Origin: Amoebidium appalachense
Lineage: Eukaryota; Protista; Ichthyosporea
Assembly (NCBI GenBank): GCA_963693365.1
Contig: CAVNZM010000001.1
Coordinates: 12,736,161 to 12,800,160, forward strand
Reading direction: 5' to 3'
DNA: 64,000 bases
Positions 1 through 57,948 of the stretch are shown piece by piece (position 1 is the first letter of the stretch; the number at the start of each line of letters is the position of its first letter). Under the pieces are notes generated by a model, which saw nothing but the letters and a program-made list of their open reading frames with translations, was not told the DNA's origin and made no database searches. Both the position numbers and the translations under genes were made by a program.

Positions 1-20
1 AACTAGTCCAACTGTTTACA

Positions 21-3000: not shown

Positions 3001-4201
3001 TCGGTGTCGGAAGGGGAGTGAGGTCATGGAAGAACTCACGGGTGGGGCAGACAGTCATGTTGCACCCGGAATCCCAGGCAGGGTCCGGGGACACGGGGAC
3101 GGAGCTAGCATTGTATGCCGAGAAAGCAAAGGAGACAGATTTCTCACTGCCTTGACGGGAACGGTTGTGTCTGGACATACGGCATTTCGGCTCAGGGCAA
3201 TCGATGATCGTGTGATCAGGCTCGTGGCAGTAGGAGCATTCTTTCACGGACGGGGTGTTAGAACGAGCCGGGGAATCAGAACGACGGGAACCCGAGAAAC
3301 GGGAACGACTGGGGGAACGAGACGTGGACCGGAAGGCAGGCCGGTGGGGGGAACGGGATCGGGTGTGCTGACGGGAGAGACGAGTTCGGAGGTCCGTACC
3401 AGGGGTACGGTCAAGTCGGTTGCGTAAGTCACGGCGAGGAAGATCACGGGGGGGAGCACTGGCATTTAATGCCATGCTGGACTTGGAGGCACGGTGGGCA
3501 CGGTTGCTCCGGAGTTGCATCTTGAGGTCTTGACGTAACTCGATGCCCTTGACGTGGTTGTGGAGGGACTCGAAGTCGGGGAATAGCTTATCACCGAAGT
3601 GATAGTCTTCGATAAGACGGTTGAACTCAGGGGTGAGGTCGTCTCTGGTGGTGAGTTCATTGAAGAACTTCTCAGCTAGACGAGTGAAGTGAATGGACTC
3701 ATCTTGGAGGGACTGGAGCTGGTTCACGATGGTCTGCAGACGGCTCAGGTAGGTGGTGAATGATTCACCGGGCTGAAGGGCACAGGCATCCCACTGACGG
3801 TGAAGGATGCGGATCTGATCGGGTTTGCCTTGGAGATAGTGTTGACGGAATTTCCACATGGCCCGTTCAGGGTCCATGCCAATACGGTACTGGGCAACGG
3901 TGGTGAGGACGGAAGGGTCGATGTTCTGTATCATATGGAGCAGGAGGCAATTGCGGGCCTCCTTGAGTTCCGCGGTAGTGCCGTAGCCAAAGAAGGGGGG
4001 TTCACCGTCAACCGCGACGGTGGTAGGGGGGACGTAGTTGTCAGCAAGTACAACATCCACGAGTCGGACACCTTTAGTGCCGGTCATCATGCCGAGAAAA
4101 ATGATTTCCCATTGAAAATAGGTGGTTTTGCTATCGGGACCAGTCTTCCCTTCACCTTTCCACATGGTTATTTTGTTGACGCCAGTTTTGTTTGGATCCA
4201 T
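21..4201 (-). pseudogene. Copia gag-pol polyprotein with two frameshifts (~1380 and ~553)
   Basis: ORFs 1289-4390, 117-1691 and 16-474. Motifs: Zn knuckle CSYCHEPDHTIIDC, protease WDSGC, WHHRLGH, integrase WHWDF...VERR, RT HQLDVSTAFLN / LKKALYGLKQA / YVDD, RNase H YTDADFAG. ATG at 4201. Confidence 0.95.
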
Positions 4202-4267
4202 GATTGAAAAAAAAACGAGCGCTAGTTCTAGATGTGTGTAGGGAGCGTGCAAAAGGGCTGCATAACC

Positions 4268-5202
4268 TGTTAAATTGTATAAGTAATTTGAGATGAAAGC
4301 AGAGACACAGTGGTGCAGTGTGAAAACACCACAGACACACACAACAACAAAACACGGAACGATCGGAGCAGTGTACACAACAGACATCAATGTTTAGACA
4401 CGACTAAACTCAATTTATTTTGATCTCGAATAAATACCTGAAATTCCCTTAAGTTAAATCCATACATGATTTCCGACCAGTCGGAAATCAGATCTATGTC
4501 TAAAATAACCAATCACAATTAACTGATTATTTCCCGGATAGATCCGGAGACACAGGAACGCACACCATAGGTCACAGCTATAAGAAAGAAATGAGGTGAA
4601 GAGTAACGAGGAAAGAGGTGATGTTTCTAACCTATCATCGGCTACAAAGACTCAGACATTTTCTGACTAAGTCCACTGATTGGATATAGTACGGCAACAC
4701 ACAAAACAAAAGTGGTTGACTAAGCTATGAATCATACCTGACAAGCTAAAGTGTAACCTAAGTGTTTTTCTACCAATCAAAACATAACGAGTAATATAAA
4801 TCTACTCAACGTATATTAGTGAGAGAGAAATATAATTATGTGAAAGGAAACAAGAGAAGAAAGAAAGAGAAAAGAAAGAAGAAGAAAGAGGAAAAAGAAA
4901 AGAAAGCAGGACAGAAAACACGAACATGAAAACACAGTTATAACCGAAGATATTCATGTACACATAACATGTACACGTTTCTCCCTCACTGGGTAGACTC
5001 GTGTACCTATAATCAGTTGCTGTAATCGATATCTAAACACACGAATATAGCCGACACAACACGATTACAAGTACTCAAATACACTGGAGATCGATGTCAT
5101 AATTTACGTACAAGGAGCACATCTCTTTCACTAAGTAAATGAATGAAAACATAACACGAACTGAGAAGATCTTACAATATGTGAATACTACGTATTACAA
5201 CA
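4268..5202 (-). repeat. 5' LTR of copia family 1 copy A (divergent LTR variant)
   Basis: TG...CA termini and an adjacent PBS. Homologous to LTRs at 37217, 43036, 45001 and 57000. Confidence 0.95.
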
Positions 5203-19907: not shown

Positions 19908-19944
19908 ATCACGTACCAGCAGGGTAAACTGATCGGTCTCCGGT

Positions 19945-33594: not shown

Positions 33595-34883
33595 TCAAGC
33601 ACCCTCAAGCAAATGCCATCTCTGAACGTGTGCATGCAGTGTTTCAGAAGTCCTTTGGCAAAATGGTGGATGTGGAGGCTAATGATTGGGATCATATGTC
33701 TAGGTTTATTGCTCATTCATATAATTCTACCCCTCATGCTGTGACTGGTTTTTCTCCGTTTTATTTGGTCTATGGGCAGGAGGATATTAGTTTGTTAGAT
33801 ACGGCACTTTTGCCGATGGGGGGGGCTGACCGACTAACTTATCCCCACTGGACTGAGTTCCGGGAGCAGCTACTAACCCGGGCCCGGGCTGCACGTGATG
33901 CAGCTCTGGCCCGTACACAGCAGGCACAGACACGTGCAGACGTGTCCACACGTCCGTTACGTGAATTTGCCGAGGGTACTTTAGTTTTAATTAGGGATCA
34001 TACTAGGAAAAAGAGATATAAGCAGGAGCAGGAAGGTAAGGGTGAAGGTGAAGGTCTTCGTAAGTATGGTAAGAAATGGTTGCCTCTTTTCATTGGCCCG
34101 TATAAAATAGTGGCTAGGTTAGGTCCGACGGAATATAAGGTGCAGAGGTTAGATAATGAGAGTGATGTTAGATTTTATAATGTAGATGATATAAAGGAAT
34201 ATTATGATAGGGCCCTTAGGGTTAAACGGCCGGAGGGCCGTCGAGTGTTAGATGCATTCACCCCCGACTATGACGGGTCGGTGGATGTATCGGAGGCTGC
34301 AGTAGATAAAATTATGGATAAAAAGGTTATCGAAGGTAAGGAAGGTAAGGTAAATTATTATTTAATTCGTTTTGAGGGAGGTTATCAGGAAGATCAGTGG
34401 TTGCCTGAGTTTCATTTGGATTGCCCGTTTTCTATTCGTGCTTATGAGGCTAGATTAGTGCAGAGGGAGTTGCCTAGTGCTCCCTCTAGGCCAAAGAGAG
34501 TTATTCCTCAGTTTAATCGTGGTGTGAAAAAGTCGGTGGGGGAGGGGGCCGGGGGGGGAGTGATGCAAATACGCGTAGACACACGGGGGAAGGGGGAGGG
34601 GGGGGGAGGAGACCGAGGAGGAGTGTGAACGTAGTCGTAGGAATTTAATTTATTATCATAGGTGTCTCCGTAGGTATCAAGCTTATGGTGTAGATTAATT
34701 TATTATTTTCTTCGTAATTTATTTAATTTAATTTTTTTCTTAGGAGACTGATTAGTCTATGTCTTTTTAGGGGGTGTTAGATGTAATGTGACTGAGGTGG
34801 GACTCAGCTTTTCCGGGGGCCGGGGGGGGAGTTGACATATACTAATCCGTCTCAGCAGATCAGCCTAAGTCTACGATCGAGAT

Positions 34884-35261: not shown

Positions 35262-37216
35262 TGGATAAATATATTGGTTTGACCTGGTCACCATTGGGTC
35301 CGGAACACAGTTGACGGACAAGTTTGGGTAGTTGGTCGATGTTGATGGGGGGACCGGGGGGGACTGGCAGGGTGGTGGTGGCTTGAAGTCCAACCTTGCC
35401 CTGTAGACGGGCAGAACGACGGGGTGCAGGAACCGGGGGAGGTGGAGACGGGGGGGGGGAACTTGGAAGTTCGGAATTGCAGGGGGGGCAACCTCCGGGC
35501 TGGACGGGGCCGAGTGGAAGTTGTCGGGGGAGCCGGGTCGGATGGGTGTGACGTTGCCAGGGGCAGGAGGAGGGTCGGCAGGCTGGACGGGCACGGGGGC
35601 AGGGGGGCCGGTGGGGGGGGGTGTCGGGGGAACGACGATGGCAGGAGGGGGGCCAGAGTACACCAGACAAACATCATCTTCAGTGTCAACTGTGGGGGTT
35701 GGGGTGGTCGAGGTAGCAGTAGTGTAGGGGGTCGGAAGTGTTGAGGGAATGTCGGACGGGAGATAAGCTGATTCGTCGAAAATCACGTCACGGAAGAGGC
35801 CGACACGATGGGTGGTGGGGTTGAAGATCCGGTGGCAGTGTGATTGAAGATCATAGCCGATATACATGCCGAGTTTGACGGTGGGGGCCAGCTTGTTCCG
35901 TTTCAGAGGCTGGCACATGAGTGTAGGCAGGGCAACCGAACACTTTGAGCTCGGAGATGTCGGGCTTGACACCGTAGAAAACCTCGAATGGTGTACGACC
36001 ATTGGCAGTCGTGGACGGGGTGACGTTGATAATGTAGGCGGCCTGTTGGAGGGCCTCAGCCCACAGTTTGGGGGACAGAGACTGATCTTGGACTTGATGG
36101 AGGAGGCAACGAACAATCTCTTGGAGGAACCGCATACGACGTTCAACACAGCCGTTCAGTTGAGGGCAGTCCACCGGAGCATAGCTGGCCTTGATGCCCT
36201 GGGAGAGGCAAAAAGCACGGGTAGCCTTGGAGGTGAACTCAGAGCCGGAGTCGAAGTGGTAGACACCAACTTTGGAGGGGGCATGGGTAGCAACGAGGTT
36301 GGTGTGAGCTGTGAGAATGTCCAGGGTGGTTGTACGGTCGGGCATCGGGTAGATCTTGACGAGGCCAGAGGCACGGCAGACAGTGACGAGAGCAACCTGG
36401 GAACCTTTGTACGATGTTGTGGTAGGCTCAAAAAAATCCCAATGCCATTCATGACCGGGGATGTTGGAGTGAGGACGGTCACCCTTGAACGGAGCCTTGG
36501 TGGTTTTACCCATAATGCAGCCATGACAATCAGGAACATCACAGTCGAGGACAGACGAGGGGAGACCAATAACAAGGTCGTGTTTCACCATGTCCTTGAT
36601 GCTGGTCATAGCACGGTGCCCCAGACGATGGTGCCAGATGGATGGGTTAACACTGGTGGTGGCAGCCAGAGCCACAGGACGAGTGGGTGGTTGAATGGTG
36701 TAGTCCTTGAAGTAATACAGACCGTTGTGGAGACGGAGGTTGACGAGATGACGGCCGGTGAGTCGGTCGAAGAGGAATGACGGAGTGGAGGCATCATTCA
36801 AATCACCCTTGATGTATTCGGCAGCAGCTTGGGATGTTGAAATGAGGAAGGCTTGGCCAGACGGGGTGTAGTAGGCTTCAATGGTAAGGGTGGCAGTGCC
36901 ATGGTCGGTGGTGGTGTTGATGACGATATGGCCGGTGTGGGTGGCCAAGACGGGGGTGCCATTGAAGGCAGCAACGGGAGTCGGTGTCGGAAGGGGAGTG
37001 AGGTCATGGAAGCCGTGACTCACGGGTGGGGCAGACAGTCATGTTGCACCCGGAATCCCAGGCAGGGTCGGAGGACACGGGGACGGAGCTAGCATTGTAT
37101 GCCGAGAAAGCAAAGGAGACAGATTTCTCATTGCCTTGACGGGAACGGTTGTGTCTGGACATACGGCATTTCGGCTCGGGGCAATCGATGATCGTGTGAT
37201 CAGGCTCGTGGCAGTA

Positions 37217-40200
37217 TGTTGTAATACGTAGTATTTACATATGGTAAGATCTTCTCAGTTTGTGTTATGTTTCAGTTCATATGCTTAGTGTAAATGCCAC
37301 ACTCCTATTATGTAAAGTGTAGCATCGATCTCCGATATGCTCGTATACTTGTAATCGTGTTGTATCGGCTCTAATCGTGTATTGTAAAATCGATTAGAAT
37401 ATTTATATGTGTGTACACGGATCCACCCACTCAGGGAGAGATGTGTACATGTTCGTGTGTACATAAATATCTCTGGTTATAGTTATGCTATTACTATCTT
37501 GTTTGTTGATCTGTGCTCTCTTTTCCTTTCTCTTTCTCCTTCCTTATTTTCTTTTCTTTCTCTCCTTGTCTTCATGTGTATAATCGTGTTTCTTTTCTAC
37601 TAATATATGTTAGGTAGATTTGTGTTACTTAATACGTGTTCATTGGACGATGACACACTTAGGCTACACTTAGATTAGCATGTGTGTTTAGACTTCGTTA
37701 ATTTACTTTAGTTTTCATGTGTTGCCGGGCTTTAACCAATCATCAAGGTTAAGTGTGATATGTCTGAGTCTTTGCAGTATGTCATAGGTTAGAACTTCCT
37801 TGATGATGACACGAGTTGACCTTAACTAGTGTCTGTGTCCTATCATGTACGTCTCCGCGTACCGGATCTCTCTGAAAGCAATTGGTTCTTAGTGATTGGT
37901 TTCTATTAGAGATAGATCTGATTTCCGACTGGTCGGAAATCATGTATGGATTGGACTTAGAGGAATTTCAGGTATTTATTCGAAGATCAGAATAAATTCA
38001 GTCTAGTCGTGTCTAAACATTGATGTCTGTTGTGTACACTGCTCCGATCGTTCCGTGTTTTGTTGTTGTGTGTGTCTGTGGTGTTTTCACACTGCACCAC
38101 TGTGTCTCTGCTTTCATCCCAAATACTTATACAATTTAACAGGTTATGCAACCCTTTTGCACGCTCCCTACACACATCTAGAACTAGCGCTCGTTTTTCA
38201 ATCATGGATCCAAACAAAACTGGTGTAAACAAAATAACCATGTGGAAAGGTGAAGGGAAAACTGGTCCCGATAGCAAAACCACCTATTTTCAATGGGAAA
38301 TCATTTTTCTCGGCATGATGACCGGCACTAAAGGTGTCCGACTCGTCTCGATGTTGTACTTGCTGACAACTACGTCCCCCCTACCACCGTCGCGGTTGAC
38401 GGTGAACCCCCCTTCTACGGCTACGGCACTACCGCGGAACTCAAGGAGGCCCGCAATTGCCTCCTGCTCCATATGATACAGAACATCGACCCTTCCGTCC
38501 TCACCACCGTTGCCCAGTACCGTATTGGCATGGACCCTGAACGGGCCATGTGGAAATTCCGTCAACACTACCTCCAAGGCAAACCCGATCAGATCCGCAT
38601 CCTTCACCGTCAGTGGGATGCCTGTGCCCTTCAGCCCGGTGAATCATTCACCACCTACCTGAGTCGTCTGCAGACCATCGTGAACCAGCTCCAGTCCCTC
38701 CAAGATGAGTCCATTCACTTCACTCGTCTAGCTGAGAAGTTCTTCAATGAACTCACCACCAGAGACGACCTCACCCCTGAGTTCAACCGTCTTATCGAAG
38801 ACTATCACTTCGGTGATAAGCTATTCCCCGACTTCGAGTCCCTCCACAACCACGTCAAGGGCATCGAGCTACGTCAAGACCTCAAGATGCAACTCCGGAG
38901 CAACCGTGCCCACCGTGCCTCCAAGTCCAGCATGGCATTAAATGCCAGTGCTCCCCCCCGTGATCTTCCTCGCCGTGACTTACGCAACCGACTTGACCGT
39001 ACCCCTGGCACGGACCTCCGAACTCGTCTCTCCCGTCAGCACACCCGATCCCGTTCCCCCCACCGGCCTGCCTTCCGGTCCACGTCTCGTTCCCCCAGTC
39101 GTTCCCGTTTCTCGGGTTCCCGTCGTTCTGATTCCCCGGCTCGTTCTAACACCCCGTCCGTGAAAGCATGCTCCTACTGCCACGAGCCTGATCACACGAT
39201 CATCGATTGCCCTGAGCCGAAATGCCGTATGTCCAGACACAACCGTTCCCGTCAAGGCAGTGAGAAATCTGTCTCCTTTGCTTTCTGGGCATACAATGCT
39301 AGCTCCGTCCCCGTGTCCTCCGACCCTGCCTGGGATTCCGGATGCAACATGACTGTCTGCCCCACCCGTGAGTTCTTCCATGACCTCACTCCCCTTCCGA
39401 CACCGACTCCTGTTGCTGCCTTCAATGGTACCCCCGTCTTGGCCACTCACACCGGCCGTATCGTCATCAACACCACCACCGACCATGGCATTGCCACCCT
39501 TACCATTGAAGCCTACTACACCCCGTCTGGCCAAGCCTTCCTCATTTCAACATCCCAAGCTGCTGCCGAATACATCAAGGGTGATTTGAATGATGCCTCC
39601 ACTCCGTCATTCCTCTTCGACCGACTCACCGGCCGTCATCTCGTCAACCTCCGTCTACACAACGGTCTGTATTACTTCAAGGACTACACCATTCAACCAC
39701 CCACTCGTCCTGTGGCTCTGGCTGCCACTACCAGTGTTAACCCATCCATCTGGCACCATCGTCTGGGGCACCGTGCTATGACCAGCATCAAGGACATGGT
39801 GAAACACGACCTTGTTATTGGTCTCCCCTCGTCTGTCCTCGACTGTGATGTTCCTGATTGTCATGGCTGCATTATGGGTAAAACCACCAAGGCTCCGTTC
39901 AAGGGTGACCGTCCTCACTCCAACATCCCCGGTCATGAATGGCATTGGGATTTTTTTAAGCCTACCACAACATCGTACGGAGGTTCCAAGGTTGCTCTCG
40001 TCACTGTCTGCCGTGCCTCTGGTCTCGTCAAGATCTACCCGATGGCCGACCGTACAACCACCCTGGACACTCTCACAGCTCACACCAACCTCGTTGCTAC
40101 CCATGCCCCCTCCAAAGTTGGTGTCTACCACTTCGACTCCGGCTCTGAGTTCACCTCCAAGGCTACCCGTGCTTTTTGCCTCTCCCAGGGCATCAAGGCC

Positions 40201-43200
40201 AGCTATGCTCCGGTGGACTGCCCTCAACTGAACGGCTGTGTTGAACGTCGTATGCGGTTCCTCCAAGAGATTGTTCGTTGCCTCCTCCATCAAGTCCAAG
40301 ATCAGTCTCTGTCCCCCAAACTGTGGGCTGAGGCCCTCCAACAGGCCGCCTACATTATCAACGTCACCCCGTCCACGACTGCCAATGGTCGTACACCATT
40401 CGAGGTTTTCTACGGTGTCAAGCCCGACATCTCCGAGCTCAAAGTGTTCGGTTGCCCTGCCTACACTCATGTGCCAGCCTCTAAACGGAACAAGCTGGCC
40501 CCCACCGTCAAACTCGGCATGTATATCGGCTATGATCTTCAATCACACTGCCACCGGATCTTCAATCCCACCACCCATTGTGTCGGCCTCTTCCGTGATG
40601 TGATTTTCGACGAATCAGCTTATCTCCCGTCCGACATTCCATCAACACTTCCGACCCCCGACACCACTGCTACTTCGACCACCCCACCCCCCACAGTTGA
40701 CACTGAAGATGATGTTTGTCTGGTGTACTCTGGCCCCCCTCCTGCCATCGTCGTTCCCCCGACACCCCCCCCCCACCGGCCCCCCTGCCCCCGTGCCCGT
40801 CCAGCCTGCCGACCCTCATCCTGCCCCTGGCAACGTCACACCCATCCGACCCGGGTCCCCCGACAACTTCCACTCGGCCCCGTCCAGCCCGGAGGTTGCC
40901 CCCCCTGCAATTCCGAACTTCCAAGTTCCCCCCCCCCCCGTCTCCACCTCCCCCGGTTCCTGCACCCCGTCGTTCTGCCCGTCTACAGGGCAAGGTTGGA
41001 CTTCAAGCCACCACCACCCTGCCAGTCCCCCCCGGTCCCCCCATCAACATCGACCAACTACCCAAACTTGTCCGTCAACTGTGTTCCGGACCCAATGGTG
41101 ACCAGGTCAAGTCAGCCCTCACTGCTGAGTATCAAGCCTTCGTCGACAAAGACATCTTTGAACTTGTTGACCCTCCCCCTGGTGCTAACATCGTCGGCTT
41201 CAAGTGGATTGTCTCCGAGAAAACTCTCAACTCGGCTGGTGACACCAAGATCAAGGCCCGTGGTGTTGCTCAAGGCTTCAGTCAGCAATACGGTGTTGAC
41301 TATGAGTTGATTGAGAGCCCTGTCATCCGTCCGGCTGCTCTCCGTGCTATCCTAGCTCTGGCCGTTGTTGAAGGTCATGACATCCATCAACTCGACGTGT
41401 CTACGGCCTTTCTCAACAGCCCACTCACCGAGACCATCTACATGAAACAACCCCCGGGATTCATCACCATGGCCACACTTGGCAAGGTCTGGAGACTCAA
41501 GAAAGCCCTGTACGGCCTCAAGCAGGCCTCCAAGGCTTGGTACGACTTCCTCGACGGCATTCTTCTTGCCCATGGCCTGACCCGTACTAAGACAGACCCG
41601 TGCATCTACCTCCGGTTCTTCCCCAACAACGATGTGGTTCGGGCTGGTAACTACGTCGACGACTCCACCATCACCAACACCCGGGGTTCTACTGCTGCCA
41701 GTGACCTGGCTGCCCACATCAGCAAGATGGCCAGCTGTCGTATGAGTCCATTTGACCGTATGCTCGGTGTTGATTTTAATCACTCTGATCCCCATCACCT
41801 CCACATGCACCAGAGGTCTTACATCATGGAATCCGATATCATCCACGACTTCAACCTCACCGATGCCAAGTCCAAGTCTACCCCCATCCCTGCAGGCACC
41901 ACCGTCTCCCTGGCTGACTGCCCCCCCCAACCGTTCACCGTGCCCTACCGTGAGTTACTCGGCCGTCTCCTCTGGGTGGCACGGTGCACACGTCCCGACA
42001 TTGCCTATGCCATCGGCTTCCTTGGTCGGTTCAGCACCAACCCCGGCAAGACTCACTGGGACCTTCTCCGTCGTGTGGCCCGGTACCTGCTCGGCACCAT
42101 TGACCTTGGCATTGACTACAAGTACTCGGCCACCCAGCCCCCCATACTCGAATGCTACACGGATGCTGACTTTGCTGGTTGTGCCGACAGCAAGAAGTCT
42201 ACCACCGGCTACATCATCGAGTTTGCTGGTATGCCCATCATCTGGTACTCCAAGCTCCAGCCCATAACGGCCACCAGCACCACTGAAGCTGAGCTGATTG
42301 CTCTCAATGCTGGCACCCAAGAAGTTGCTTGGGTCCGTGACCTCTTCAAGGAACTCGGCTGTCCCATGCTTGCTCCGACTCCGGTGTACTGTGACAACCA
42401 CTGGCAGTCGACCATTGCCATCGTCAACTCCACCGGCATCAAGCACCGTACCAAACACATTGCCGTCCGGTATCACAACACCAAGGACTACATTGCAAGT
42501 GGGGACGTGGTTGTCCACTACGTTGAGTCAGCCCACAACTTAGCTGACATCCTCACCAAACCCCTCCCCGGCCCGAGTCATGTCAACCATCGTGCTCGAC
42601 TTTGTTTACCGGATATTGTGGATTGACCCGTCCTACTTCAAGAGTGATTTTCTAATGTTTACTACTTCCTTTATCATAATCATTATTTCATATGAATATT
42701 GCCTTTGTGGGTATGCCCACTTAGGGTTTATATGTAAGGTTTGACCTGTACCATGACTCTACTCTATCTTTCACTGGTTTAAAACCCAGTTAATCAAACC
42801 CCGACTATACACGTTATACATATTCGTTGTTTTGGTTCCTTCCCCCCCCCCCCCCTCCCCCCCCCCCTTTCCCCCCCCTTCCCCCCCCCCTCCCCCCCCC
42901 TTCTCCCCCCCCCCCCCCCCCCCCCCGGGAAAAGTACACACTTTAATTTTTTTTTTCGTTTCTGTTCTCAAGTGGGGAGATTTCACTAGTTCAGTGGGGA
43001 TATGATAACACAAACTTCAAAGTCTTAAGTGGGGATGTTGTAATACGTAGTATTTACATATGGTAAGATCTTCTCAGTTTGTGTTATGTTTCAGTTCATA
43101 TGCTTAGTGTAAATGCCACACTCCTATTATGTAAAGTGTAGCATCGATCTCCGATATGCTTGTATACTTGTAATCGTGTTGTATCGGCTCTAATCGTGTA

Positions 43201-43964
43201 TTGTAAAATCGATTAGAATATTTATGTGTGTACACGGATCCACCCACTCAGGGAGAGATGTGTACATGTTCGTGTGTACATAAATATCTCTGGTTATAGT
43301 TATGCTATTACTATCTTTTTTGTTGATCTGTGCTCTCTTTTCCTTTCTCTTTCTCCTTCCTTATTTTCTTTTCTTTCTCTCCTTGTCTTCATGTGTATAA
43401 TCGTGTTTCTTTTCTACTAATATATGTTAGGTAGATTTGTGTTACTTAATACGTGTTCATTGGACGATGACACACTTAGGCTACACTTAGATTAGCATGT
43501 GTGTTTAGACTTCGTTAATTTACTTTAGTTTTCATGTGTTGCCGGGCTTTAACCAATCATCAAGGTTAAGTGTGATATGTCTGAGTCTTTGCAGTATGTC
43601 ATAGGTTACTAATAGAACTTCCTTGATGATGACACGAGTTGACCTTAACTAGTGTCTGTGTCCTATCATGTACGTCTCCGCGTACCGGATCTCTCTGAAA
43701 GCAATTGGTTCTTAGTGATTGGTTTCTATTAGCGATAGATCTGATTTCCGACTGGTCGGAAATCATGTATGGATTGGACTTAGAGGAATTTCAGGTATTT
43801 ATTCGAAGATCAGAATAAATTCAGTCTAGTCGTGTCTAAACATTGATGTCTGTTGTGTACACTGCTCCGATCGTTCCGTGTTTTGTTGTTGTGTGTGTCT
43901 GTGGTGTTTTCACACTGCACCACTGTGTCTCTGCTTTCATCCCAAATACTTATACAATTTAACA
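37217..43964 (+). mobile_element. Copia family 1, copy B, full length, TSD CAGTA
   Basis: LTRs at 37217-38141 and 43036-43964 (~5 differences by eye). PBS GGTTATGCAACCC at 38142. PPT AAGTGGGGA before 43036. CAGTA at 37212-37216 and 43965-43969. Confidence 0.98.
38204..42626 (+). pseudogene. Copia gag-pol of copy B; frameshifts at ~38347 and in poly-C tracts ~40770-41040, plus two 6-bp insertions
   Basis: ORFs 38030-38476, 38473-41310 and 40716-42626 carry all copia motifs through NLADILTKPL. Confidence 0.95.
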
Positions 43965-45925
43965 CAGTAGGAGCATGCTTTCACGGACGGGTTGTTAGAA
44001 CGAGCCGGGGAATCAGAACGACGGGAACCCGAGAAACGGGAACGACTGGGGGAACGAGACGTGGACCGGAAGGCAGGCCGGTGGGGGGAACGGGATCGGG
44101 TGTGCTGACGGGAGAGACGAGTTCGGAGATCCGTGCCAGGGGTACGGTCAAGTCGGTTGCGTAAGTCACGTTGAGGAAGATCACGGGGGGGAGCACTGGC
44201 ATTTAATGCCATGCTGGACTTGGAGGCACGGTGGGCACGGTTGCTCCGGAGTTGCATCTTGAGGTCTTGACGTAACTCGATGCCCTTGACGTGGTTGTGG
44301 AGGGACTCGAAGTCGGGGAATAGCTTATCACCGAAGTGATAGTCTTCGATAAGACGGTTGAACTCAGGGGTGAGGTCGTCTCTGGTGGTGAGTTCATTGA
44401 AGAACTTCTCAGCTAGACGAGTGAAGTGAATGGACTCATCTTGGAGGGACTGGAGCTGGTTCACGATGGTCTGCAGACGACTCAGGTAGGTGGTGAATGA
44501 TTCACCGGGCTGAAGGGCACAGGCATCCCACTGACGGTGAAGGATGCGGATCTGATCGGGTTTGCCTTGGAGGTAGTGTTGACGGAATTTCCACATGGCC
44601 CGTTCAGGGTCCATGCCAATACGGTACTGGGCAACGGTGGTGAGCACGGAAGGGTCGATGTTCTGAATCATATGGAGCAGGAGGCAATTGCGGGCCTCCT
44701 TGAGCTCCGCGGTAGTGCCGTAGCCGTAGAAGGGGGGTTCACCGTCAACCGCGACGGTGGTAGGGGGGACATAGTTGTCAGCAAGTACAACATCCACAAG
44801 TCGGACACCTTTAGTGCCGGTCATCATGCCGAGAAAAATGATTTCCCATTGAAAATAGGTGGTTTTGCTATCGGGACCAGTCTTCCCTTCAGCTTTCCAC
44901 ATGGTTATTTTGTTTACACCAGTTTTGTTTGGATCCATGATTGAAAAACGATCGCTAGTTCTAGATGTGTGTAAGGAGCGTGCAAAAGGGCTGCATAACC
45001 TATAAAATTATATAAGTATTTGGGATGTAAGCAGAGACACAGTGGTGCAGTGTGAAAACACCACAGACACACACAACAACAAAACACGGAACGATCGGAG
45101 CAGTGTACACAACAGACATCAATGTTTAGACACGACTGAACTGAATTTATTCTGATCTGCGAATAAATACCTGAAATTCCTCTAAGTCCAATCCATACAT
45201 GATTTCCGACCAGTCGGAAATCAGATCTATCTCTAATAGAAACCAATCACTAAGAACCAATTGCTTTCAGAGAGATCCGGTACGCGGAGACGCACACGAT
45301 AGGACACAGACACTAGTTAAGGTCAACTCGTGTCATCATCAAGGAAGTTCTAACCTATGACATACTGCAAAGACTCAGACATATCACACTTAACCTTGAT
45401 GATTGGTTAAAGCCCGGCAACACATGAAAACTAAAGTGAATTAATGAAGTCTAAACACACATGCTATTCTAAGTGTAGCCTAAGTTTGTTACCGTCCAAT
45501 GAACATGTATTAAGTAACACAAATCTACCTAACATATATTAGTAGAAAAGAAATACGATTATACACATGAAGACAAAGAGAGAAAGAAAAGAAAATAAGG
45601 AGGGAGAAAGAGGAAGGAAAAGAGAGCACAGATCAACAAACAAGATAGTAATAGCATAACTATAACCAGAGATATTTATGTACACACGAACATGTACACG
45701 TCTCTCCCTGAGTGGGTGGATCCGTGTACACACATATAAATATTCTAATCGATATTACAACACACGATTAAAGCCGATACAACACGATTACAAGTATACA
45801 AGCATATCGGAGATCGATGCCACAATTTACATAATAGGAGTGTGGCATTTACACTAAGCATATGAACTGAAACATAACACAAACTGAGAAGATCTTACCA
45901 TATGTAAATACTACGTATTACAACA

Positions 45926-47807: not shown

Positions 47808-48610
47808 TAAACATGGGGAAGGGGGTCATCATGGGCTAACCAAACATAAACATGGGGAAGGGGGTCATCATGGGCCCACTCATGTTAGTGTTAAGCCCCC
47901 CTGCAGGCATGGCCGGGAAACCAAAAGGCCACTGCTGCACCGGCCTGACCCACAACCCCGGTGGTTACACCCACAGTTAGATGGTGTTGTACAGTCCCGA
48001 CCCCGTGGTGAATGGTCACGGGTGCGTGCGCGAGAAGACTCCCGTTCTGGAGTGCGGTTGCGCTGGGGAGAGCGGTTGCGCGAGCGAGCACGCTCGTGCA
48101 CACACCCGCGCTCCTTGCTGCGCTCATGCGCTCACCACCGCGCTCGCGCTCACGCACACGCACACGCTCAGGGGACCGGCTACGACGAGAAGGAGAACGG
48201 CGCCGCGGGCGAGGGGAGCGGGAACGGTCGGCATCACGGTCAGGTGATGGTGAACGGTACTCACGGCCAGGGGTGGGCGGGTTGTAGTTGTATCCCCACT
48301 GGTCATCTGCCAAAACCCCATAATAGTTATTCCGTAAGTAAACATCACCCTCCTGGGTCTCACCCTGATTGCCAACTGCCTGTTTATTCCCACCAGCCTG
48401 GCTGCCAACACCACGTGCACCCCTCTTTTTAACAGGAACCCACCCAGCTTCTCTCAGGGCTTGGAATGCACGCAATGCCTCAGTCTGCCGGCGCAACACT
48501 TCCTCCGTGTTGCTAGCATCTACCCCCATAACCTCAGCGGCATGATCAAGTAAAGAACGTTCCTGTGTGCTAGGGTCACGTGCATGTGGGGGTACAGTCA
48601 GGTCAGGCTC

Positions 48611-48760
48611 TGTTGGAATACGTCACCATGTATGACAGCAAGAGCCTTGAAGTATGTATGTGTCCTAGCTTGTTTGTATTCGTGTCTGCTTTCCTTCTTT
48701 GTGCTCTCTCTCTCTCTCTCTCTCTCTTTCTCCCTCTCCCTCTCTCTCTCTCTCTCTCTT

Positions 48761-48838
<78 letters not shown>

Positions 48839-51800
48839 CCCCCCCCCCCCCCGTATCTCTCTCTCCCTAAGGCTTGTTTCTGTGGGCACAGATATCTGTA
48901 GATCTGTGCACACCTGGCTCTCTTGCCTGATAAGAACTTATTGTATTTTATTTCTGTTTGCTCTCCTCTGTTTATCTGAGAGGTAGCGTGATTGGCTAGC
49001 CTCACTGGTTGTCTTTCCTTTATTTCAAAATGGCTTAGTTTTGTTCTCAAAAGGATGGCTCGCCAATAGTCGCGAGCGAGTACATCTGTAGATTGTGTTG
49101 TGCATTCCTGTCTATTAATATATGTGTGTTGTGATTGGACAATAGATATATATGGAATTCGGTTTATTGCAAAGTGTCTTCACTTTGAGAGTGTCGACTA
49201 TTAGGAAATATATGTATTTAAATAAGTTTCTTTATAGAGACGAACATAAATATATATGTGAGTTAATAGTGACTAGATGTATAATTACTTAATTTATTTA
49301 AGTAAGAGTTTCTAAACTTTAGTTTAATCGGAAGTTGGAATGCGTATGCTCTGTCGGAATGTGTTTTTCTATCTTCTGATAGAACCGATTGGTTCTCCCT
49401 CTTTAGTTGTGATAAGGTGATAAGTCGCAAGTACAAAAGGAACCGAGAGCACAATAAAGATTCAGTTGTTGTTTGAAATCTTTCAATGTCTCGTGAACAA
49501 CTCCGATTGCCCTCTCATTAATGTGTTAGTCGTGTTTTACATGACACCTCTGTGCACTCTGCTCCCTTAGACCCGTACAAAACAACAGGTTAAAGGCCCA
49601 GTTTTCGCACGCTCTCGCAACACATACTCTCGCTGCAATCGAAAATATTCAAATTTGAATACCGATCTGATTCCTCTCTCACGCATCATCTGACTGATTG
49701 ATCACCATGTCGGAGAAACCTGCGTATCTCAACCTCACCCCCTGGAAAGGGGATGACACCACGGACAAGAAGTCCGGCAAACGTCTCACCTATTATGAGT
49801 GGGAACCCGTCATCTTCCGGTACCTACGTACTACCACCGCGGCCAAGTTAGTGCCCGTCATCAAGGCCCCCGAGTGGGTCGACCCTTCCGACGAGAACGA
49901 GTGGCACGGCTATGACACTGAGGAGGCCTACACCGAGGCTTCCAACTTCCTTGAACAGATGTTTACTCAACTCGTCTCCAATGATGAGCTGTATAACTCT
50001 GGTCAAATCCACGATGATGTGTCACCTGCCCAAGCTTTCCACAACCTCCGTATGACCTATGCGGCTGAACGTGAAGATCGTGCTCGTCAAATCCTCCTCG
50101 ACTACCATGAGCTTGAACTCAAGGACTTCAAGACCGTCACGGCCTACCTCACCATGGCACGCCGTCTGTGCACTACCCTGCACATCCTCGAAGAGCCCAT
50201 CCCCCACAAGACTATGGTTGATAACTTCTTCATCCACCTCAAGAAGAACCGTAAGTTAGTTTGTACCGACATCCAGGCCATGATTGCCGACTACTTCCGT
50301 CGTACCATCAACTACGAGACCTACAACCGTCTAATCAGTGACATCCGAGCTGCAGAGATCCGTGAAGGTCTCATCGACTCTGGGTCCGGGTCCTCCTCCA
50401 CCGTCCGAACAGCACGTGCCCTGCAAAGCCGTGTCCTCACCAAGGACGACCTCAGACACCGGATCCCCCGACGTGACAGCTCCGTCTCCCGTCACCCCCG
50501 TGGTCGTCCCACCGATCGATCCCCCTCAGTTGACCGTGATTACTCCCGGTCCCGTTCCCCCGGCTATCGTTCCCGGTCACCCTACCCCCCACGTAAAGGG
50601 GGTAACCGTCATTCCCAGCCACCCTGAGCCAAGACCACTGGCTCCCTCGACTGTGCCTACTGTCACGAAGACCATCATGTCACACAGTGTGACAAACCTG
50701 GCTGCTCAATTGCCCGTCGTCATCGTGCCAGCACCAAGTCTGGAAAAGAGGTGCATTTTGCCCTCGTGTCCACCACGGCCTCCCTACCCATGGACCCCTG
50801 CTGGGACTCGGCTTCAAACGTCCACGTGTGCCCAGTAAAGGAGTACTTCTCTACTCTTGAGCCATGCCCCCCGACTGACGTCCACGGCCTCGGCATCGTC
50901 ACTGCACATCACCGTGGTGTCATCAACCTGGCCGTCACCTACAACGGAGTAACATCAGTACTGAGCCTCAACACCCTCTATGTACCCGACTCCCCAGCCT
51001 TCCTGATTTCACCCTCAATGGCCTCCAAGTCGGGTCTCCGTGCCCACCTCGATGATGAGGATGAATTCCCATCCTACCTCTACACTCGTGGTGGCAACAT
51101 CGTGTGTTCCCTCACAGGCACAGATGGACTGTACTTCATCACCGACTATGAGATACGTCCCTCCATCCCTCGGACCGTCACTGCTCTGGTAGCCAACGTC
51201 AAGGTCAACAATGATCCTCAGCTCTGGCACCACCGTCTCGGCCATCGTGCCCTGTCCACCCTCACCAAGATGGTGAGAGGTGACCTCGTGACAGGCCTCC
51301 CCTCATCCCTCTCAGTGGCTGACACCACTGACTGCTTCGGTTGTGTCTCCGGCAAGACCACCAAGGCCCCATTCTCCGGCACCAGAACCCAGTGCCCCTT
51401 CCCCGGTGCCAAGTGGCACATGGACTTCTTCGAGCCTCCCTGTGCCTCCTATGGTGGCTACAAGGTGGCCCTCGTGTGTACCTGTGATGCCTCCGGCTAC
51501 ACCATCGTGTACCTCCTCCGTGATCGATCCGAAAGTCTCGAATACGTCAAGGCCCTGGTTGAGACTACTGACAAGCAACCCGACAAGGTGGTGACCCACT
51601 TCCGATCAGACTCTGGGTCCGAGTTCACCTCCCATGCTATGGAGCAGTACTGCCAGTCCAAGGGCATCATACAGGAATTTGCCCCGGTTGACTGCCCCCA
51701 ACTCAACGGCTTCGTTGAACGTAAGATGAGGGATCTGCAGGAGATCGTTCGGTGCTTCCTTCATCAGGACAAGGCCGACTCCCTTTCCCCCAAGCTGTGG

Positions 51801-54800
51801 GGAGCTGCTCTCAAGCATGCTGCCTACATCATCAACGTGACCCCGGCCAGAGCTGCCAATGGCCGTACCCCGTTTGAAATTTTCTACGGTGTCAAGCCTG
51901 ACATCTCCCACCTGCACGTGTTCGGCTGCCCAGCCTCATTCTATGTACACGTCCCTGCATCCAAACGAGACAAGTTGGCCTCTACCGTCACACTCGGCAC
52001 CTACGTGGGCTGGGATATCACCAACAAAGCCCACAAGATCATGAATCTACGTGGCAACACGGTCAACCTCTACCGCGATGTCGTCTTCGACGAATCACAA
52101 TTCACCACGGCATCCAATCAGATTTCTGTGCAGGCCACCAATCAGACGACCTCAATCGATCCATCCCTGCATTCCGGAAATTCCAATTCCGATGACGATG
52201 AAATTCCGTCGGTGATTATCCGTCGTTCCCCCCGTCGTGTACCTGCCCCCGTGGCTCCACCCACCCCCCCCCCCCCACCGGCCAGCAACCCCTGCTGCCG
52301 GCCCCTGCCGTCAATGACCACGTACCTGGTCATCTCACCCCGGTTCGTCCTGGGTCTCCGGAGTTCCACTCGGCCCCGTCCAGCCCCGTGTTATCCGACT
52401 CCCCCCTCAACACGGCACCAATCCCTGGCTTCCAGGCCCCCATCCCCGACCACCGAGTGTCTGTCCCAGACACCCCCCCGGCCCCTGAGCCCCTCCGTAC
52501 CGTCCCCCGTCGTTCCTCCCGTCTCTCCTCCCGGCCTGCCATGGCTATGGTGAGCATCTCCCGACCCAGCCTTGATGTGTCTCAGCTGCCCCGGTCAATT
52601 CAGAAGCTGTGCTCCGGCACCAAGGGTGATGAAGTGGTGACTGCCCTCACTGCCGAGTACAAGGCTTTCATCGACAAGGACATCTTCGACGTAGTTGAGC
52701 CCCCCTCCGATGCCAACATCATCCGATTCAAGTGGATTGTCACGGAGAAGGTCCTCAACTCTGCTGGTGACACCAAGATCAAGGGTCGTGGTGTGGCCAA
52801 GGGTTTCACCCAAGTCTACGGTGTTGACTATGGTGAAAACTCTTCCCCCGACGTCGTCATGTCCTCCTCCGTCCGTGCCCTGCTTGCCCTCGGTGTGCAA
52901 CAGGACCACGAGATCCATCAACTCGACATCAGCACGGCCTTCCTCAACAGCCCCCTCGACGAGACTTTGTACATGGAGCAACCTCCTGGTTTTATCCTCC
53001 CTGGCAATGAACACAAAGTCTGGAAACTCAAGAAGGCCATCTACGGACTCAAGCAGGCATCCCTGGCATGGTACGAGTTCTTCAACTCCATTCTCATTGC
53101 CCACGGCCTCACCCGTCTCCGTTCCGATCCGTGTGTCTACTTCCGTCAGTTCCCCAACGGGCACATCATCCGTTCGGGCAACTACGTTGATGATGCCATC
53201 ATCACCTGCACACGGCACTCCACCATCATGCAGGGGCTTGTTCGTCACATCACGAAGTCTGCCGAGTGCAAGGTCGGTCTGCCAGACATCTTCCTCGGCA
53301 CCCAACTGCTGTACACCCGTGACTCCCTCAAGCTGCTGCAGTCCTCCTACATCAAGGACATCATCACCGACTTCAACCTAGTCGATGCCAAGCCTAAGGC
53401 CACCCCTATTCCCGTGGGCACCATCATCAACGAGACCTCCCTCTCATCCCTGCCCACCACCGTCCCCTACCGTGAACTCCTCGGCCGTCTGCTGTGGGTT
53501 GCTCGATGCTCCCGGCCTGACATCTCGTATGCCATTGGCTACCTCGGCCGATTCAGCTCCAAGCCCACCAAGACTGCCTGGGAGCTTCTCCTCCGTGTCG
53601 TTCGTTACCTGCTCGGCACCATCAACCTCGGCCTCTACTACAAGAAGAAGGCCCCCAACAGCAAGGTGCCCATCCTTGAGTGCTACTTGGATTCTGACTT
53701 TGCTGGTTGCCCCACCACCCGTCGTTCCACGTCTGGGTACGTCATCCTCCTCGAAGGCACCCCCGTCACCTACCACTCCAAGCTGCAGACGATCACTGCA
53801 ACTTCCACCTGTGAGGCCGAGCTCCTGGCCCTCAATGCTGCCGTGCAAGATGTTGTCTGGCACCGTGATCTACTAAAGGAGCTGGGCTACCCCATGACCG
53901 AGCCCACCCCCGTGTACTGTGACAATCAGTCCACCATTGCTCTGGTCCACTCCAACACCATCAAGCACCGGACCAAGCACATTGCCGTTCGTTACTTCAA
54001 CACCAAGGACTACATCAACAGTGGGGACGTCACTGTCACCTACATCGACACCAAGAAGAACCTGGCCGACATCTTCACCAAGCCTCTGGCTGGTCCGGCC
54101 CACGACACACACCGTGCCAACCTCAGTCTCCGTGACTGACCCGTGCACTGGTGTTCATCATCGAGTGGTTTCTGAGTAGGTTGGGGCCCTGGACAGCAGT
54201 TGACACACCTACGGTGATCAAGATGCCTCCCAACGAAAGTCTACTACTCCTCATCGTTTCTCTTCATCAGTGGGGACTCTGTCTTACATCGTCATGTGTG
54301 TGCATCTTCAGTGGGGATTATTCTCCACCATCCGTCGTTTATTTATATTCATATCCCACCATATATTGGTTTTCTTCTATATTCGACTTTATATATATGT
54401 CGAACTGGGATGGCGTCCCAGTATAAATAATTATCTATAGCCATGGCGTGCTGGTTGACTGCCAGTCTAAACCTAGTCCACGGGATGCACCTTCCCCGTG
54501 TCTTAACTGGTTGACTACCAGTCTATAAATCAGTCCACAAGATGTTCATGCCTTGTGTTTACCTGGGTGGTCCCCAGTATAAAACATTAGCCACCAACAC
54601 GTCACACATACACTAGTGTTTCCTCTATATATATATATCGACAATAATGAACCACCATGATTTATTGTTCCGAGTCTTCAGAGGCAACCGTCGTTGTGTG
54701 CCTCTTCAGTTTTGATTCTCTCCTTCCCACCTCAAGGATCTTCGGTTTGCATCCTCGAGTGGGGAAACTTGAGTGTGACGGCCCCTCCTGTGTTTGGACC

Positions 54801-55042
54801 TCATCTACCGTCACATCAACAGACACGAGAACACAAACTTCAACCCCTTGAGTGGGGATGTTGGAATACGTCACCATGTATGACAGCAAGAGCCTTGAAG
54901 TATGTATGTGTCCTAGCTTGTTTGTATTCGTGTCTGCTTTCCTTCTTTGTGCTCTCTCTCTCTCTCTCTCTCTCTTTCTCCCTCCCCCCTCTCTCTCTCT
55001 CTCTCTTTCTCCCTCTCTCTCTCTCTCTCTCTCTCTCCGTCT

Positions 55043-55079
<37 letters not shown>

Positions 55080-55826
55080 CCCCCCCCCCCCCCCCCCGTA
55101 TCTCTCTCTCCCTTGTTTCTGTGGGCACAGATATCTGTAGATCTGTGCACACCTGGCTCTCTTGCCTGATAAGAACTTATTGTATTTTATTTCTGTTTGC
55201 TCTCCTCTGTTTATCTGAGAGGTAGCGTGATTGGCTAGCCTCACTCGTTGTCTTTCCTTTATTTCAAAATGGCTTAGTTTTGTTCTCAAAAGGATGGCTC
55301 GCCAATAGTCGCGAGCGAGTACATCTGTAGATTGTGTTGTGCATTCCTGTCTATTAATATATGTGTGTTGTGATTGGACAATAGATATATATGGAATTCG
55401 GTTTATTGCAAAGTGTCTTCACTTTGAGAGTGTCGACTATTAGGAAATATATGTATTTAAATAAGTTTCTTTATAGAGACGAACATAAATATATATGTGA
55501 GTTAATAGTGACTAGATGTATAATTACTTAATTTATTTAAGTAAGAGTTTCTAAACTTTAGTTTAATCGGAAGTTGGAATGCGTATGCTCTGTCGGAATG
55601 TGTTTTTCTATCTTCTGATAGAACCGATTGGTTCTCCCTCTTTAGTTGTGATAAGGTGATAAGTCGCAAGTACAAAAGGAACCGAGAGCACAATAAAGAT
55701 TCAGTTGTTGTTTGAAATCTTTCAATGTCTCGTGAACAACTCCGATTGCCCTCTCATTAATGTGTTAGTCGTGTTTTACATGACACCTCTGTGCACTCTG
55801 CTCCCTTAGACCCGTACAAAACAACA
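48611..55826 (+). mobile_element. Ty1/copia family 2, full length, TSD GGCTC
   Basis: LTRs at 48611-49587 and 54859-55826 (TGTTG...CAACA). PBS GGTTAAAGGCCCAG at 49588. PPT GAGTGGGGA. GGCTC at 48606-48610 and 55827-55831. Confidence 0.98.
49707..54139 (+). pseudogene. Copia family 2 gag-pol with an in-frame TGA (50625-50627) and frameshift(s) in the C-rich IN-RT linker (~52260-52390)
   Basis: ORFs 49698-50627 and 50751-52553 share a frame; 52388-54139 follows. Motifs WDSAS, WHHRLGH, WHMDF/RSDSGSEF/VERK, YVDD, LDSDFAG, NLADIFTKPL. Confidence 0.95.
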
Positions 55827-56999
55827 GGCTCAGACTCAGAACCATCACCCTCACGAACGTCATCCCCATCCCCCACACGATCAGACACACCAGGAGAGCG
55901 CACAGGTGACTGGGGTTCGTAATCTGAGTCACTACCCTCGTCACTCTCAGACCCCGAGCTCTCGCTAGACCCATTCTGCTCCCACTCAGAATCATCAGAT
56001 TCAGGCTCAACATGGAAAGCAGCAACATTAATAGGCCTAGTGCCCCGAAGAGTCCTGCGCCCACGCAACTGAGTAGCACTGCATAACACAACGGCCAGGT
56101 GTGTGCATGCCACGTGTCTCTGTATCGTCACAGCTTCCAGCCCAGACATGGGTGGAGCCATAATAAACACACGGTAATAATCAGCACACTCACCAGAATC
56201 ATAAGGGGAACTCTCCCGACCACCCTCACGCGTGGCCGAACGCCGGCCAGGCTCACGGCTGCGACTGCGGGAACGGCGCCCGCCTCTCTCAGCCCCAGTG
56301 CCAGCCATCTCAGCTGCACGTTCTTGCCACCACAGTGGCGCACACCAACGTGTCAAAAGGGTTCCCTACTGGTCGTGCCCACGGCCCCAACACCGTGACA
56401 GCAGCCTACTCCTCACAGTGGTCACTGTCACACAGTACCACCGGTTGCACTTGCAAAGCACAGTGCAAGCAGCTCCAGCCACGCTGGCAGCCACCCACGT
56501 TCACGGTGAAAGTCGGAACGTCGCAGTAGCACGCCCGATACCAAGTTGATGGCGCAAACATCCAAATGTGGCCAACAAATTTTAGGTATCCAATCACAGG
56601 AAAAAAGCGTGAATCGCAACCAATCACAAAGTTGTAACTAGGAGAAATTTCTTTGTCGTTCCGACTCGTTCGGATCTTGGCAACCGGGAGCGAGAGGTCC
56701 AAAGTTTCAAAGTTTCAAAGTATGTTACTGACATGCATGGTGCTCGAAGGTGAAAGCTGTAAAGGCTACCGTAGGCTACTCCTCACACTAACCAAATTAC
56801 TAACATTTTTGACTCCTAAGGGAGCAGGTCTCTGAATCCTTCGAGGACGAAGGATCTTGAGGGGGGAGTGATGTGGTGTGACTGAAGCACACGCCGTTGA
56901 GAATCCCTACCACACTATGAACCAATGATATGGATGTAATGATTACCATATATGGATAGCCTAGCTGAGCCCTGATCCCAGAGTACATGTATGACCGTC

Positions 57000-57948
57000 T
57001 GTAAATTTATATAAGTATTTGGGACTGGGAAGTAAAGCAGAGACATGCTGGTGCAGTGTAAAAACACCACAGACACACAACAACAAAACACGCGGGACGA
57101 TCGAAGCAGTGTACACAACAGACATCAATGTTTAGACACGACTAAACTAAATTTATTTCGATCTTGTTTATATATTCGAAATTCCCTTAAGTCAAACCTA
57201 TCCGTGATTTCCGACCAGTCGGAAATCAGATCTGTCAATAAAAGAAACCAATCACTAAGTACTAATTGCTTTCAGAGAGATCTGGTACGCGGATATGTAC
57301 AGGATAGGGCACAAACACTAGCGAAGATCAACTTGTGTCATTATCGAGGCCCTGGGAGCGAGGGAAAGTTCTAACCTATGACACACTGCAAAGACTCAGA
57401 CATACCACACTTAACCTTGATGATTGGTTAAAGCACGACAACACATGAAAACTAAAGTAAATTAATGAAGTCTGATCACACATGTCAACCCAAGTGTAGC
57501 CTAAGTGTGTTACCGTCCAATCAACACATATTAAGTAACACAAATCTGCCTAACATATATTGGTAGAAAAGAAATACGATTATACACATGAAAACAAGGA
57601 GAGAGAGAAAAGAAAATAAAGAAGGAGAAAGAGAAAGGAGAAGAGAGCACAGATCAACAAACGAGATAGCAATAGCATAACTATAACTAAAGATATTTAT
57701 GTACACACGAACATATACACGTCTCTCCCTGAGTGGGTGGATCCGTGTACACACATTAATATTCTAATCGATATTGCAACACACGATTAAAGCCGATACA
57801 ACACGATTACAAGTATACAAGCATATCGGAGATCGATGCTACACTTTACATAATAGGAGTGTGACATTTATACTAAGCATATGAACTGAAACATAACACA
57901 AACTGAAAAGATCTTACCTAACTAAAGTAGATACTACGTACTACAACA
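57000..57948 (-). mobile_element. Solo LTR of copia family 1, TSD CCGTC
   Basis: Full LTR homology with no internal sequence. CCGTC at 56995-56999 and 57949-57953. Confidence 0.96.

What the first reader, a model, noticed from the sequence alone, without database searches (positions are those of the whole stretch)
41828..43615. Fixed-geometry 6-bp inversion scar, three times in one young retrotransposon: footprint of an unseen hairpin-forming excision system?
Seen: copy B has three +6 insertions that follow one rule, XYZW -> XYZ + revcomp(XYZW) + YZW. (1) GGAT -> GGA ATCC GAT at 41831-41836, absent in copy A at ~575-585. (2) CCAG -> CCA CTGG CAG at 42401-42406, turning the conserved CDNQS into CDNHWQS; no same-family reference covers this site. 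(3) TTAG -> TTA CTAA TAG at 43609-43614, absent from the 5' LTR at ~37790, so it arose after insertion. The product is strand-symmetric. Established: hAT, CACTA and Transib/RAG enzymes leave hairpins on the flanking DNA that open into palindromic P nucleotides. Inference: with a 4-bp TSD, one base lost per flank and hairpins opened 4 nt in, the two overhangs are exactly complementary and give exactly this scar. That points to a very active cut-and-paste element with a non-specific 4-bp TSD (Chapaev/CMC-like is one candidate), or to a dedicated break-repair or template-switch activity. Because +6 is in frame, it would add dipeptides to proteins.
Basis: partly seen in the sequence, partly recalled or inferred. 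Interest (0 to 1): 0.88.

Follow-up and report, generated by a model that had tools for sequence, protein, structure and literature searches.

The report
Six-base hairpin transposon excision scars
Young retrotransposon copies here carry four 6-base insertions that follow one exact forward-reverse-forward rule, likely scars left where an unseen jumping gene with a 4-base target duplication cut itself out, which would be an undescribed version of a known mechanism.

Summary
All three insertions in copia copy B obey XYZW -> XYZ + revcomp(XYZW) + YZW. Site 2, which had no reference, lacks the 6 bases in family contigs of all four runs laid. All four polarised 6-bp insertions in close copies fit; a random 6-mer fits 181 in 300,000 times, a tandem duplication 0 in 300,000. 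The scar equals Ac/Ds-type flank hairpins (one base lost) joined through the inverted 4-bp duplication. No transposase or proven 4-bp-TSD element is in the window, no genome is held, and no contig was shown to carry a filled allele. The mechanism class is published, and this scan already noted the same geometry with 8 bp in Perkinsus and related +6/+7 rules elsewhere. New here: the 4-bp version and its rate, about one scar per 5-29 substitutions in B. Chapaev is possible but not favoured over a hAT-like enzyme. Verdict: real, new variant of a known kind, culprit unidentified.

The parts
41828..41837 (.). Scar 1, GGAT -> GGA ATCC GAT; adds two residues in B's reverse transcriptase (M-D becomes M-E-S-D)
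42398..42407 (.). Scar 2, CCAG -> CCA CTGG CAG; CDNQS becomes CDNHWQS in the RNase H region (motif role recalled)
43606..43615 (.). Scar 3, TTAG -> TTA CTAA TAG, in B's 3' LTR only
48866..48875 (.). Scar 4 (new), CCTT -> CCT AAGG CTT, in the 5' LTR of copia element E, absent from its 3' LTR at about 55112
57347..57356 (.). Probable scar 5 (AGGG/CCCT) inside a 16-bp insertion of the solo LTR; the 6 bases are not separately polarised
37008..37026 (+). Imperfect fold-back in copy C: two bases replaced by a 6-base inverted copy of the neighbouring flank (+4), centre base unchanged; related but does not follow the rule
37217..43964 (+). Ty1/copia element B (LTRs 37217-38141 and 43035-43964, 4 substitutions in 930 bp; 5-bp TSD CAGTA), nested in an opposite-strand copy of the same family
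21..5202 (-). Copy A of the same family, reference for scar 1 (54 substitutions in 4246 internal bases)
35279..37216 (-). Copy C, 3' continuation of D, split by B
43965..45925 (-). Copy D (LTR plus gag), reference for scar 3
48611..55826 (+). Copia element E of a related family (about 68% to B in pol; TSD GGCTC), host of scar 4
56999..57948 (-). Solo LTR, 87% to B's LTR, host of probable scar 5

Best explanation
Each 6-base insertion is likely the repaired empty site of a cut-and-paste DNA transposon that duplicates 4 bases on insertion and would seal both chromosome ends as hairpins when it leaves. Inferred steps: (1) insertion gives XYZW-[element]-XYZW; (2) the transposase nicks one base into each flank and the freed 3'-OH attacks the opposite strand at the element border, as Ac/Ds does, so the left end reads XYZ-revcomp(XYZW) and the right end is its mirror; (3) host nucleases open the hairpins; (4) the two tails anneal through the only built-in match, revcomp(XYZW) with XYZW, and fill-in gives XYZ + revcomp(XYZW) + YZW, net +6. 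Shown: the product, its polarity at four sites, its strand symmetry, and that this model reproduces it. Not shown: the element and enzyme. My split among candidates, if an element is responsible: hAT-like enzyme with a 4-bp stagger about half, Chapaev/CMC about a third, other 4-bp superfamilies the rest.
For: Chance fit 6e-4 per event, tandem duplication 0/300,000; strand model 5 of 5. Both palindrome centres are the complement of the lost base, as in Ac/Ds footprints, where 85-100% (Arabidopsis) and 88-89% (S. cerevisiae) show microhomology (PMC5873905 passages). Flank hairpins are established for hAT, Transib, RAG and MULE (PMC5499845 passages). TSD length varies inside these groups: hAT 5, 6, 7, 8 bp; CMCT 2-5 bp (PMC12730594 passages); Chapaev 3-4 bp (PMC4079192 passages). 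Scars occur in two or three different host elements and in both coding and LTR DNA.
Against: No transposase in 142 ORFs outside the LTR elements; no unambiguous TIR element with a 4-bp TSD; no occupied allele seen among the loose ends displayed (19 of 439). No contig was shown to carry a filled allele; at 41829 all X3 depth is the gapped form (2785.7 of 2785.7) although X3 matches the window in unique DNA. Published Ac/Ds footprints are heterogeneous, with short palindromes commonest, whereas here one outcome dominates; only one imperfect fold-back (37017) and one weak classic-type +4 (16633) were seen. No 4-bp hAT was found in the passages read. Three scars in B against none in A's 4.2 kb and none perfect in C/D's 3.9 kb is uneven.
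Confidence: 0.78

Rival explanations
1. No element is involved. A 4-nt 5'-staggered break (the topoisomerase II geometry, or an aborted integration) is filled in by three bases, each end is sealed on itself, and the hairpins are opened and joined as above. The intermediate is the same as in the best explanation.
For: Top2 nicks are 4 bp apart and leave 5' overhangs (bioRxiv 2020.05.03.075358 passages). No element is in view. Targets share no clear consensus.
Against: The described Top2 product is a direct 2-4 bp duplication; that paper has 0 occurrences of 'inver' or 'hairpin'. No clean 4-bp direct duplication appears among the 10 close-pair indels. It needs an undescribed end-sealing step on both ends.
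Confidence: 0.08
2. Double template switch during replication, repair synthesis or reverse transcription: the polymerase copies 4 bases of the opposite strand and returns two bases back.
For: All verified scars lie in retroelements; motif enrichment is in B (6 vs 1.4) and E (4 vs 1.6), not in other DNA (13 vs 8.2). An imperfect fold-back exists in copy C.
Against: Priming match is 0-1 nt at the first switch and 0 at the second at 5 of 5 sites. Nothing in this route fixes the lengths 3+4+3 or the strand symmetry. Retroelements are the only close pairs in the window, so the location is partly ascertainment.
Confidence: 0.06
3. Assembly or polishing artefact.
For: No laid contig was shown to hold a filled allele; X3 shows only the gapped form at 41829 while X1 and X3 match the window in unique DNA (0 differences over 2502 bases in X1).
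Against: These contigs also lack some of B's private substitutions (39491 and 40356 absent in both runs) while holding others near single-copy depth (40344), so they drop single-copy variants of this high-copy family. I know no sequencing error that writes a reverse-complement 4-mer between offset duplicates (recalled). Comparable scars were noted in unrelated genomes (unchecked notes, not independent proof).
Confidence: 0.05

Closest known systems
Ac/Ds (hAT) excision footprints in plants, S. cerevisiae and C. albicans (PMC5873905, PMC1978519, PMC4561436; passages)
   Same: Palindromes made of flank DNA, centred on the complement of the base next to the element; hairpin opening and microhomology-guided end joining.
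   Different: Implied TSD is 4 bp, not 8 (5, 6, 7 in hAT5/6/7). One full-length symmetric product dominates instead of a spread of short palindromes and deletions. Net +6 keeps the reading frame. Element unseen.
Chapaev / CMC(T) transposons (PMC4079192, PMC12730594; passages)
   Same: 3-4 bp TSD (2-5 bp across the clade); relatives Transib and RAG make flank hairpins.
   Different: No CAC...GTG element with a matching 4-bp TSD and no transposase found here; no passage read gives Chapaev's cleavage chemistry or footprints; RAG cuts flush with no base lost (recalled), which would give +8.
Muta1 MULE (PMC5499845; passages)
   Same: Hairpins on the flanking DNA.
   Different: Long TSDs and over 90% precise excision in yeast.
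Top2-initiated de novo duplications (bioRxiv 2020.05.03.075358; passages)
   Same: 4-bp stagger, NHEJ product.
   Different: Direct duplication of 2-4 bp, no inverted copy.
Earlier notes of this scan: 8-bp scar X[1-7]+rc(X)+X[2-8] in Perkinsus (e1-9784544); XYZ-rc-XYZ +6 scars (e1-9921465, e1-7452166, e1-7450037, e1-7380848)
   Same: e1-9784544 has the same geometry with n=8; the others also add 6 bases with an inverted middle.
   Different: n=4 here; the XYZ-rc-XYZ rule fits 0 of 5 sites. These are unchecked AI notes.

Membership tests
hAT excision footprint | Palindrome of flank DNA centred on the complement of the base next to the element | tested here: met
   5 of 5 sites reproduced with one base lost per flank; feature from PMC5873905
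hAT excision footprint | 8-bp TSD (5, 6, 7 in variants) | tested here: not met
   Implied duplication is 4 bp; no 6- or 8-bp version of the motif in the window; lengths from PMC12730594
hAT excision footprint | hAT transposase and TIR element in the genome | not testable with these tools
   No genome held; none in 142 window ORFs
Chapaev / CMC | 3-4 bp TSD | tested here: inconclusive
   4 bp is inferred from the scar, not seen at an occupied site
Chapaev / CMC | TIRs with CAC...GTG termini | tested here: inconclusive
   Fold-back 16981-17300 has CAC/GTG near its ends but no TSD in that register; CA...TG with palindromic TGCA as TSD is undecidable from one copy
Chapaev / CMC | DDE transposase with C(2)C and H(3-4)H motifs | not testable with these tools
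   No transposase in the window, no genome
Kolobok / piggyBac (TTAA-specific, recalled) | TTAA target | tested here: not met
   0 of 5 targets are TTAA
MULE | Long TSD and mostly precise excision | tested here: not met
   4-bp geometry with a fixed +6 scar against PMC5499845
XYZ-rc-XYZ scars (3 bp, no base lost) | Nine-letter word, reverse complement, word | tested here: not met
   0 of 5 sites
Top2 de novo duplication | Direct 2-4 bp duplication | tested here: not met
   0 of 5 sites are tandem duplications; definition
Template-switch (quasi-palindrome) mutation | Priming microhomology at the switch points | tested here: not met
   0-1 nt at switch 1, 0 at switch 2, 5 of 5 sites

The most novel reading that the evidence does not exclude
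The scars need no transposon: this eukaryote converts 4-nt staggered breaks (topoisomerase II geometry) into hairpin-capped ends and repairs them to a fixed in-frame inverted triplication, a new mutational signature that writes dipeptides into proteins at up to a fifth of the substitution rate.
Probability: 0.08. Interest if true: 0.85.

Novelty: new variant of a known kind. Interest (0 to 1): 0.5.

Why it matters
The scar reads out enzyme chemistry from genome sequence alone: stagger 4 bp, one base lost, hairpin on the flank. If the element is found it is either a hAT-like family with a shorter TSD than the 5-8 bp in the paper read, or first evidence on how a Chapaev/CMC element with a 4-bp TSD cuts. 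The 10-letter motif is specific enough to count past excisions genome-wide. At one scar per roughly 5-29 substitutions in B, excision would be a sizeable mutation class, and being +6 it inserts residue pairs rather than frameshifts (shown twice in B's pol). Limits: the mechanism class is long established, this scan has several sister cases, and the rate rests on three events in one copy.

Tried and rejected
No whole genome is held, so the genome-wide count could not be run. No notes exist for this genome; sequence look-ups gave nothing relevant. Run search: no RNA holder listed. Viral contigs: no relative of B's RT. Metagenome contigs: 6 distant copia loci at 33-48% identity, useful only for spacing. 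Protein searches: one unnamed 47% USP7 relative, none among longer proteins, no RT relative at E<=1e-100, so neither host identity nor family-wide dipeptide insertions could be tested. Read laying on B showed 12 of 68 indel rows, none a 'put in' of 6; two X3 contigs are 6 and 7 letters longer than their span but the letters are not shown. Read laying on 17630-22380 aimed at strain differences in unique DNA, but X1 and X3 proved essentially identical to the window there; 12 of 24 indel rows shown, none of 6 bp. First TIR scan was swamped by inverted LTR copies; the filtered scans gave a TA-flanked element and no clear 4-bp one. Other motif hits rejected as chance or unpolarised: 38336/4060 and 39904/36474 are shared by copies; 39485 is not a gap against C; E's 50132, 53331, 53529 show no extra length against B by eye and; 18131 shows no gap against its internal duplicate. 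B's +2 at 38346, A's +2 at 554 and the solo LTR's +7 at 57033 fit no symmetric rule. All five targets have a doubled end base (background 0.45 each, p about 0.02-0.04, post hoc): noted, not used. Literature searches returned no paper whose listing or passages describe this 4-bp scar; the library lacks most subscription papers, Yu et al. 2004 (PMC321453) is not held, and no supplements were read. Two searches and passages of PMC11244446 followed an untested guess about the host and are not used as evidence. PMC4455052 passages gave only classification.

Full report
Setting. The window is eukaryotic, with intron-rich host genes (USP7, a CitMHS/P-protein-like transporter, a syntenin-like PDZ protein) and nested Ty1/copia elements. 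The host was not identified; the PDZ hit hints at a holozoan and is weak. Copy B (37217-43964) has LTRs with 4 substitutions in 930 bp and a CAGTA duplication, and sits inside an opposite-strand copy C/D; A is a further copy; E is a related family; a solo LTR lies at 56999-57948.

Observation. Site 1 is missing from A. Site 3 is missing from four other LTRs. Site 2 had no reference in the window, but family contigs of X1, X3, X13 and X17 leave out 6 bases at 41829 and 42399, and E and three distant copia loci lack two residues at the matching places wherever they align cleanly (L003 is ambiguous at site 2). Aligning every close pair gave a fourth case: E's 5' LTR has CCT AAGG CTT at 48866 where its 3' LTR has CCTT. 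This is an out-of-sample confirmation in another family. A fifth motif lies in a 16-bp insertion of the solo LTR and is only probable. Of 10 distinct internal indels of 2 bp or more in the five close pairs, three are 6 bp and all three fit; with site 2 the count is 4 of 4. Three 6-7 bp gaps in the 76% and 87% LTR alignments do not fit and were left out of that count because those alignments are ambiguous or compound.

Chance. Random 6-mers inserted in B and E sequence fit the rule 181 times in 300,000; tandem duplications fit it 0 times, whereas they fit the XYZ-rc-XYZ rule 3.3% of the time. The fourth event alone has p about 6e-4. The motif is enriched in B (6 against 1.4) and marginally in E (4 against 1.6), not in the remaining 36 kb (13 against 8.2), so unpolarised motif hits are mostly chance.

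Mechanism. Written as T[:-k] + revcomp(T) + T[k:], the scars have n=4, k=1, and no other +6 rule tested fits. A strand model with a nick one base into each flank, attack on the opposite strand at the element border and annealing of revcomp(T) with T reproduces all five. That is the Ac/Ds geometry: palindromes centred on the complement of the flanking base, with microhomology in most joints (PMC5873905; also PMC1978519, and PMC4561436; passages only). Flank hairpins are shown for hAT, Transib, RAG and Muta1 (PMC5499845 passages). The inverted TSD supplies a 4-nt match whatever the opening point beyond 4 nt, which would explain one dominant product (inference). Template switching lacks priming matches. 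An element-free route from a 4-nt staggered break reaches the same hairpins, but the described Top2 product is a direct duplication (passages).

The culprit. None is proven. No transposase was found in 142 ORFs outside the LTR elements. A 2.1-kb TIR element at 17804-19905 is flanked by TA and is multicopy. A 320-bp fold-back at 16981-17300 ends in TGCACAACTA...TAGTTGTGCA and could be a CA...TG element with a TGCA duplication, but TGCA is palindromic and one copy cannot decide. hAT TSDs reported are 5-8 bp and CMCT TSDs 2-5 bp (PMC12730594); Chapaev has 3-4 bp and CAC...GTG ends (PMC4079192). The lost base points to hAT-like cutting; the length points to Chapaev. That RAG-type enzymes cut flush is recalled, not read here.

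Against my reading. No contig was shown to hold a filled allele. X1 and X3 match the window in unique DNA, yet at 41829 all X3 depth is gapped. The scars are unevenly spread (three in B, none in A's 4.2 kb). Published footprints are more varied than these.

Rate. B should have gained about 15 substitutions since its LTRs were copied and differs from X17's family contigs by about 86 over its length; three scars give one per 5-29 substitutions. Only site 3 is dated after LTR copying. Sites 1 and 2 add ES and HW to pol in frame; damage to RNase H at site 2 is likely but untested.

Novelty. The class is published. This scan noted the n=8 form in Perkinsus and +6/+7 relatives in other genomes (unchecked notes). 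I found no description of the n=4 form in searches, in a library that lacks most subscription papers; no supplements were read. Verdict: real feature, new variant of a known kind, interest 0.5; best explanation 0.78.

Noticed in passing
window 16981-17300: 320-bp fold-back (about 70% arm identity) with ends TGCACAACTA...TAGTTGTGCA; MITE-like, and the only lead for a 4-bp-TSD element (TGCA, palindromic, so undecidable from one copy).
   Followed up: partly
window 17804-19905: Non-coding TIR element (GGCCCTTGCAAAA ends, TA on both sides, ATCACGTAC also on both sides) with an internal 950-bp duplication at 84%; multicopy in X1 and X3. Resembles TA-duplicating PHIS elements; several copies in the runs carry +7 to +14 insertions whose letters were not shown.
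   Followed up: partly
window 59258-59891: Seven XYZ-revcomp-XYZ 9-mers in 630 bp; 42 such motifs in masked non-LTR DNA against 11-15 from Markov nulls, some overlapping or low-complexity. Possibly a second scar class; no reference to polarise.
   Followed up: partly
window 16629-16640: In an 80-bp tandem array one unit has a +4 change readable as ATA A T TAT from ATAT, the classic short Ac-type footprint for a 4-bp duplication; AT-rich and weak.
   Followed up: partly
window 57341-57366 and 57020-57035: Solo LTR holds a 7-bp direct duplication with a 1-base spacer under scar 5, and a 5-bp duplication with a spacer (+7); possibly footprints of other elements.
   Followed up: no
window 33513-34628: Ty3/gypsy integrase and chromodomain-like fragment whose 5' part is lengthened by short duplications and palindromes.
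   Followed up: no
window 38059-38060 (run X1, table 5c): One contig carries a fold-back insertion (five letters, joint going back two), resembling a hairpin product in another copy of the LTR; not an exact fit to the rule.
   Followed up: no
window 1-21: Copy A breaks off 4 bases before the position of scar 2 into sequence starting TGT, probably another LTR insertion.
   Followed up: no
window 47891-48610 and 55827-56365: Minus-strand low-complexity ORF interrupted by element E, no Pfam hit; probably gag-like ORF of a further element.
   Followed up: partly
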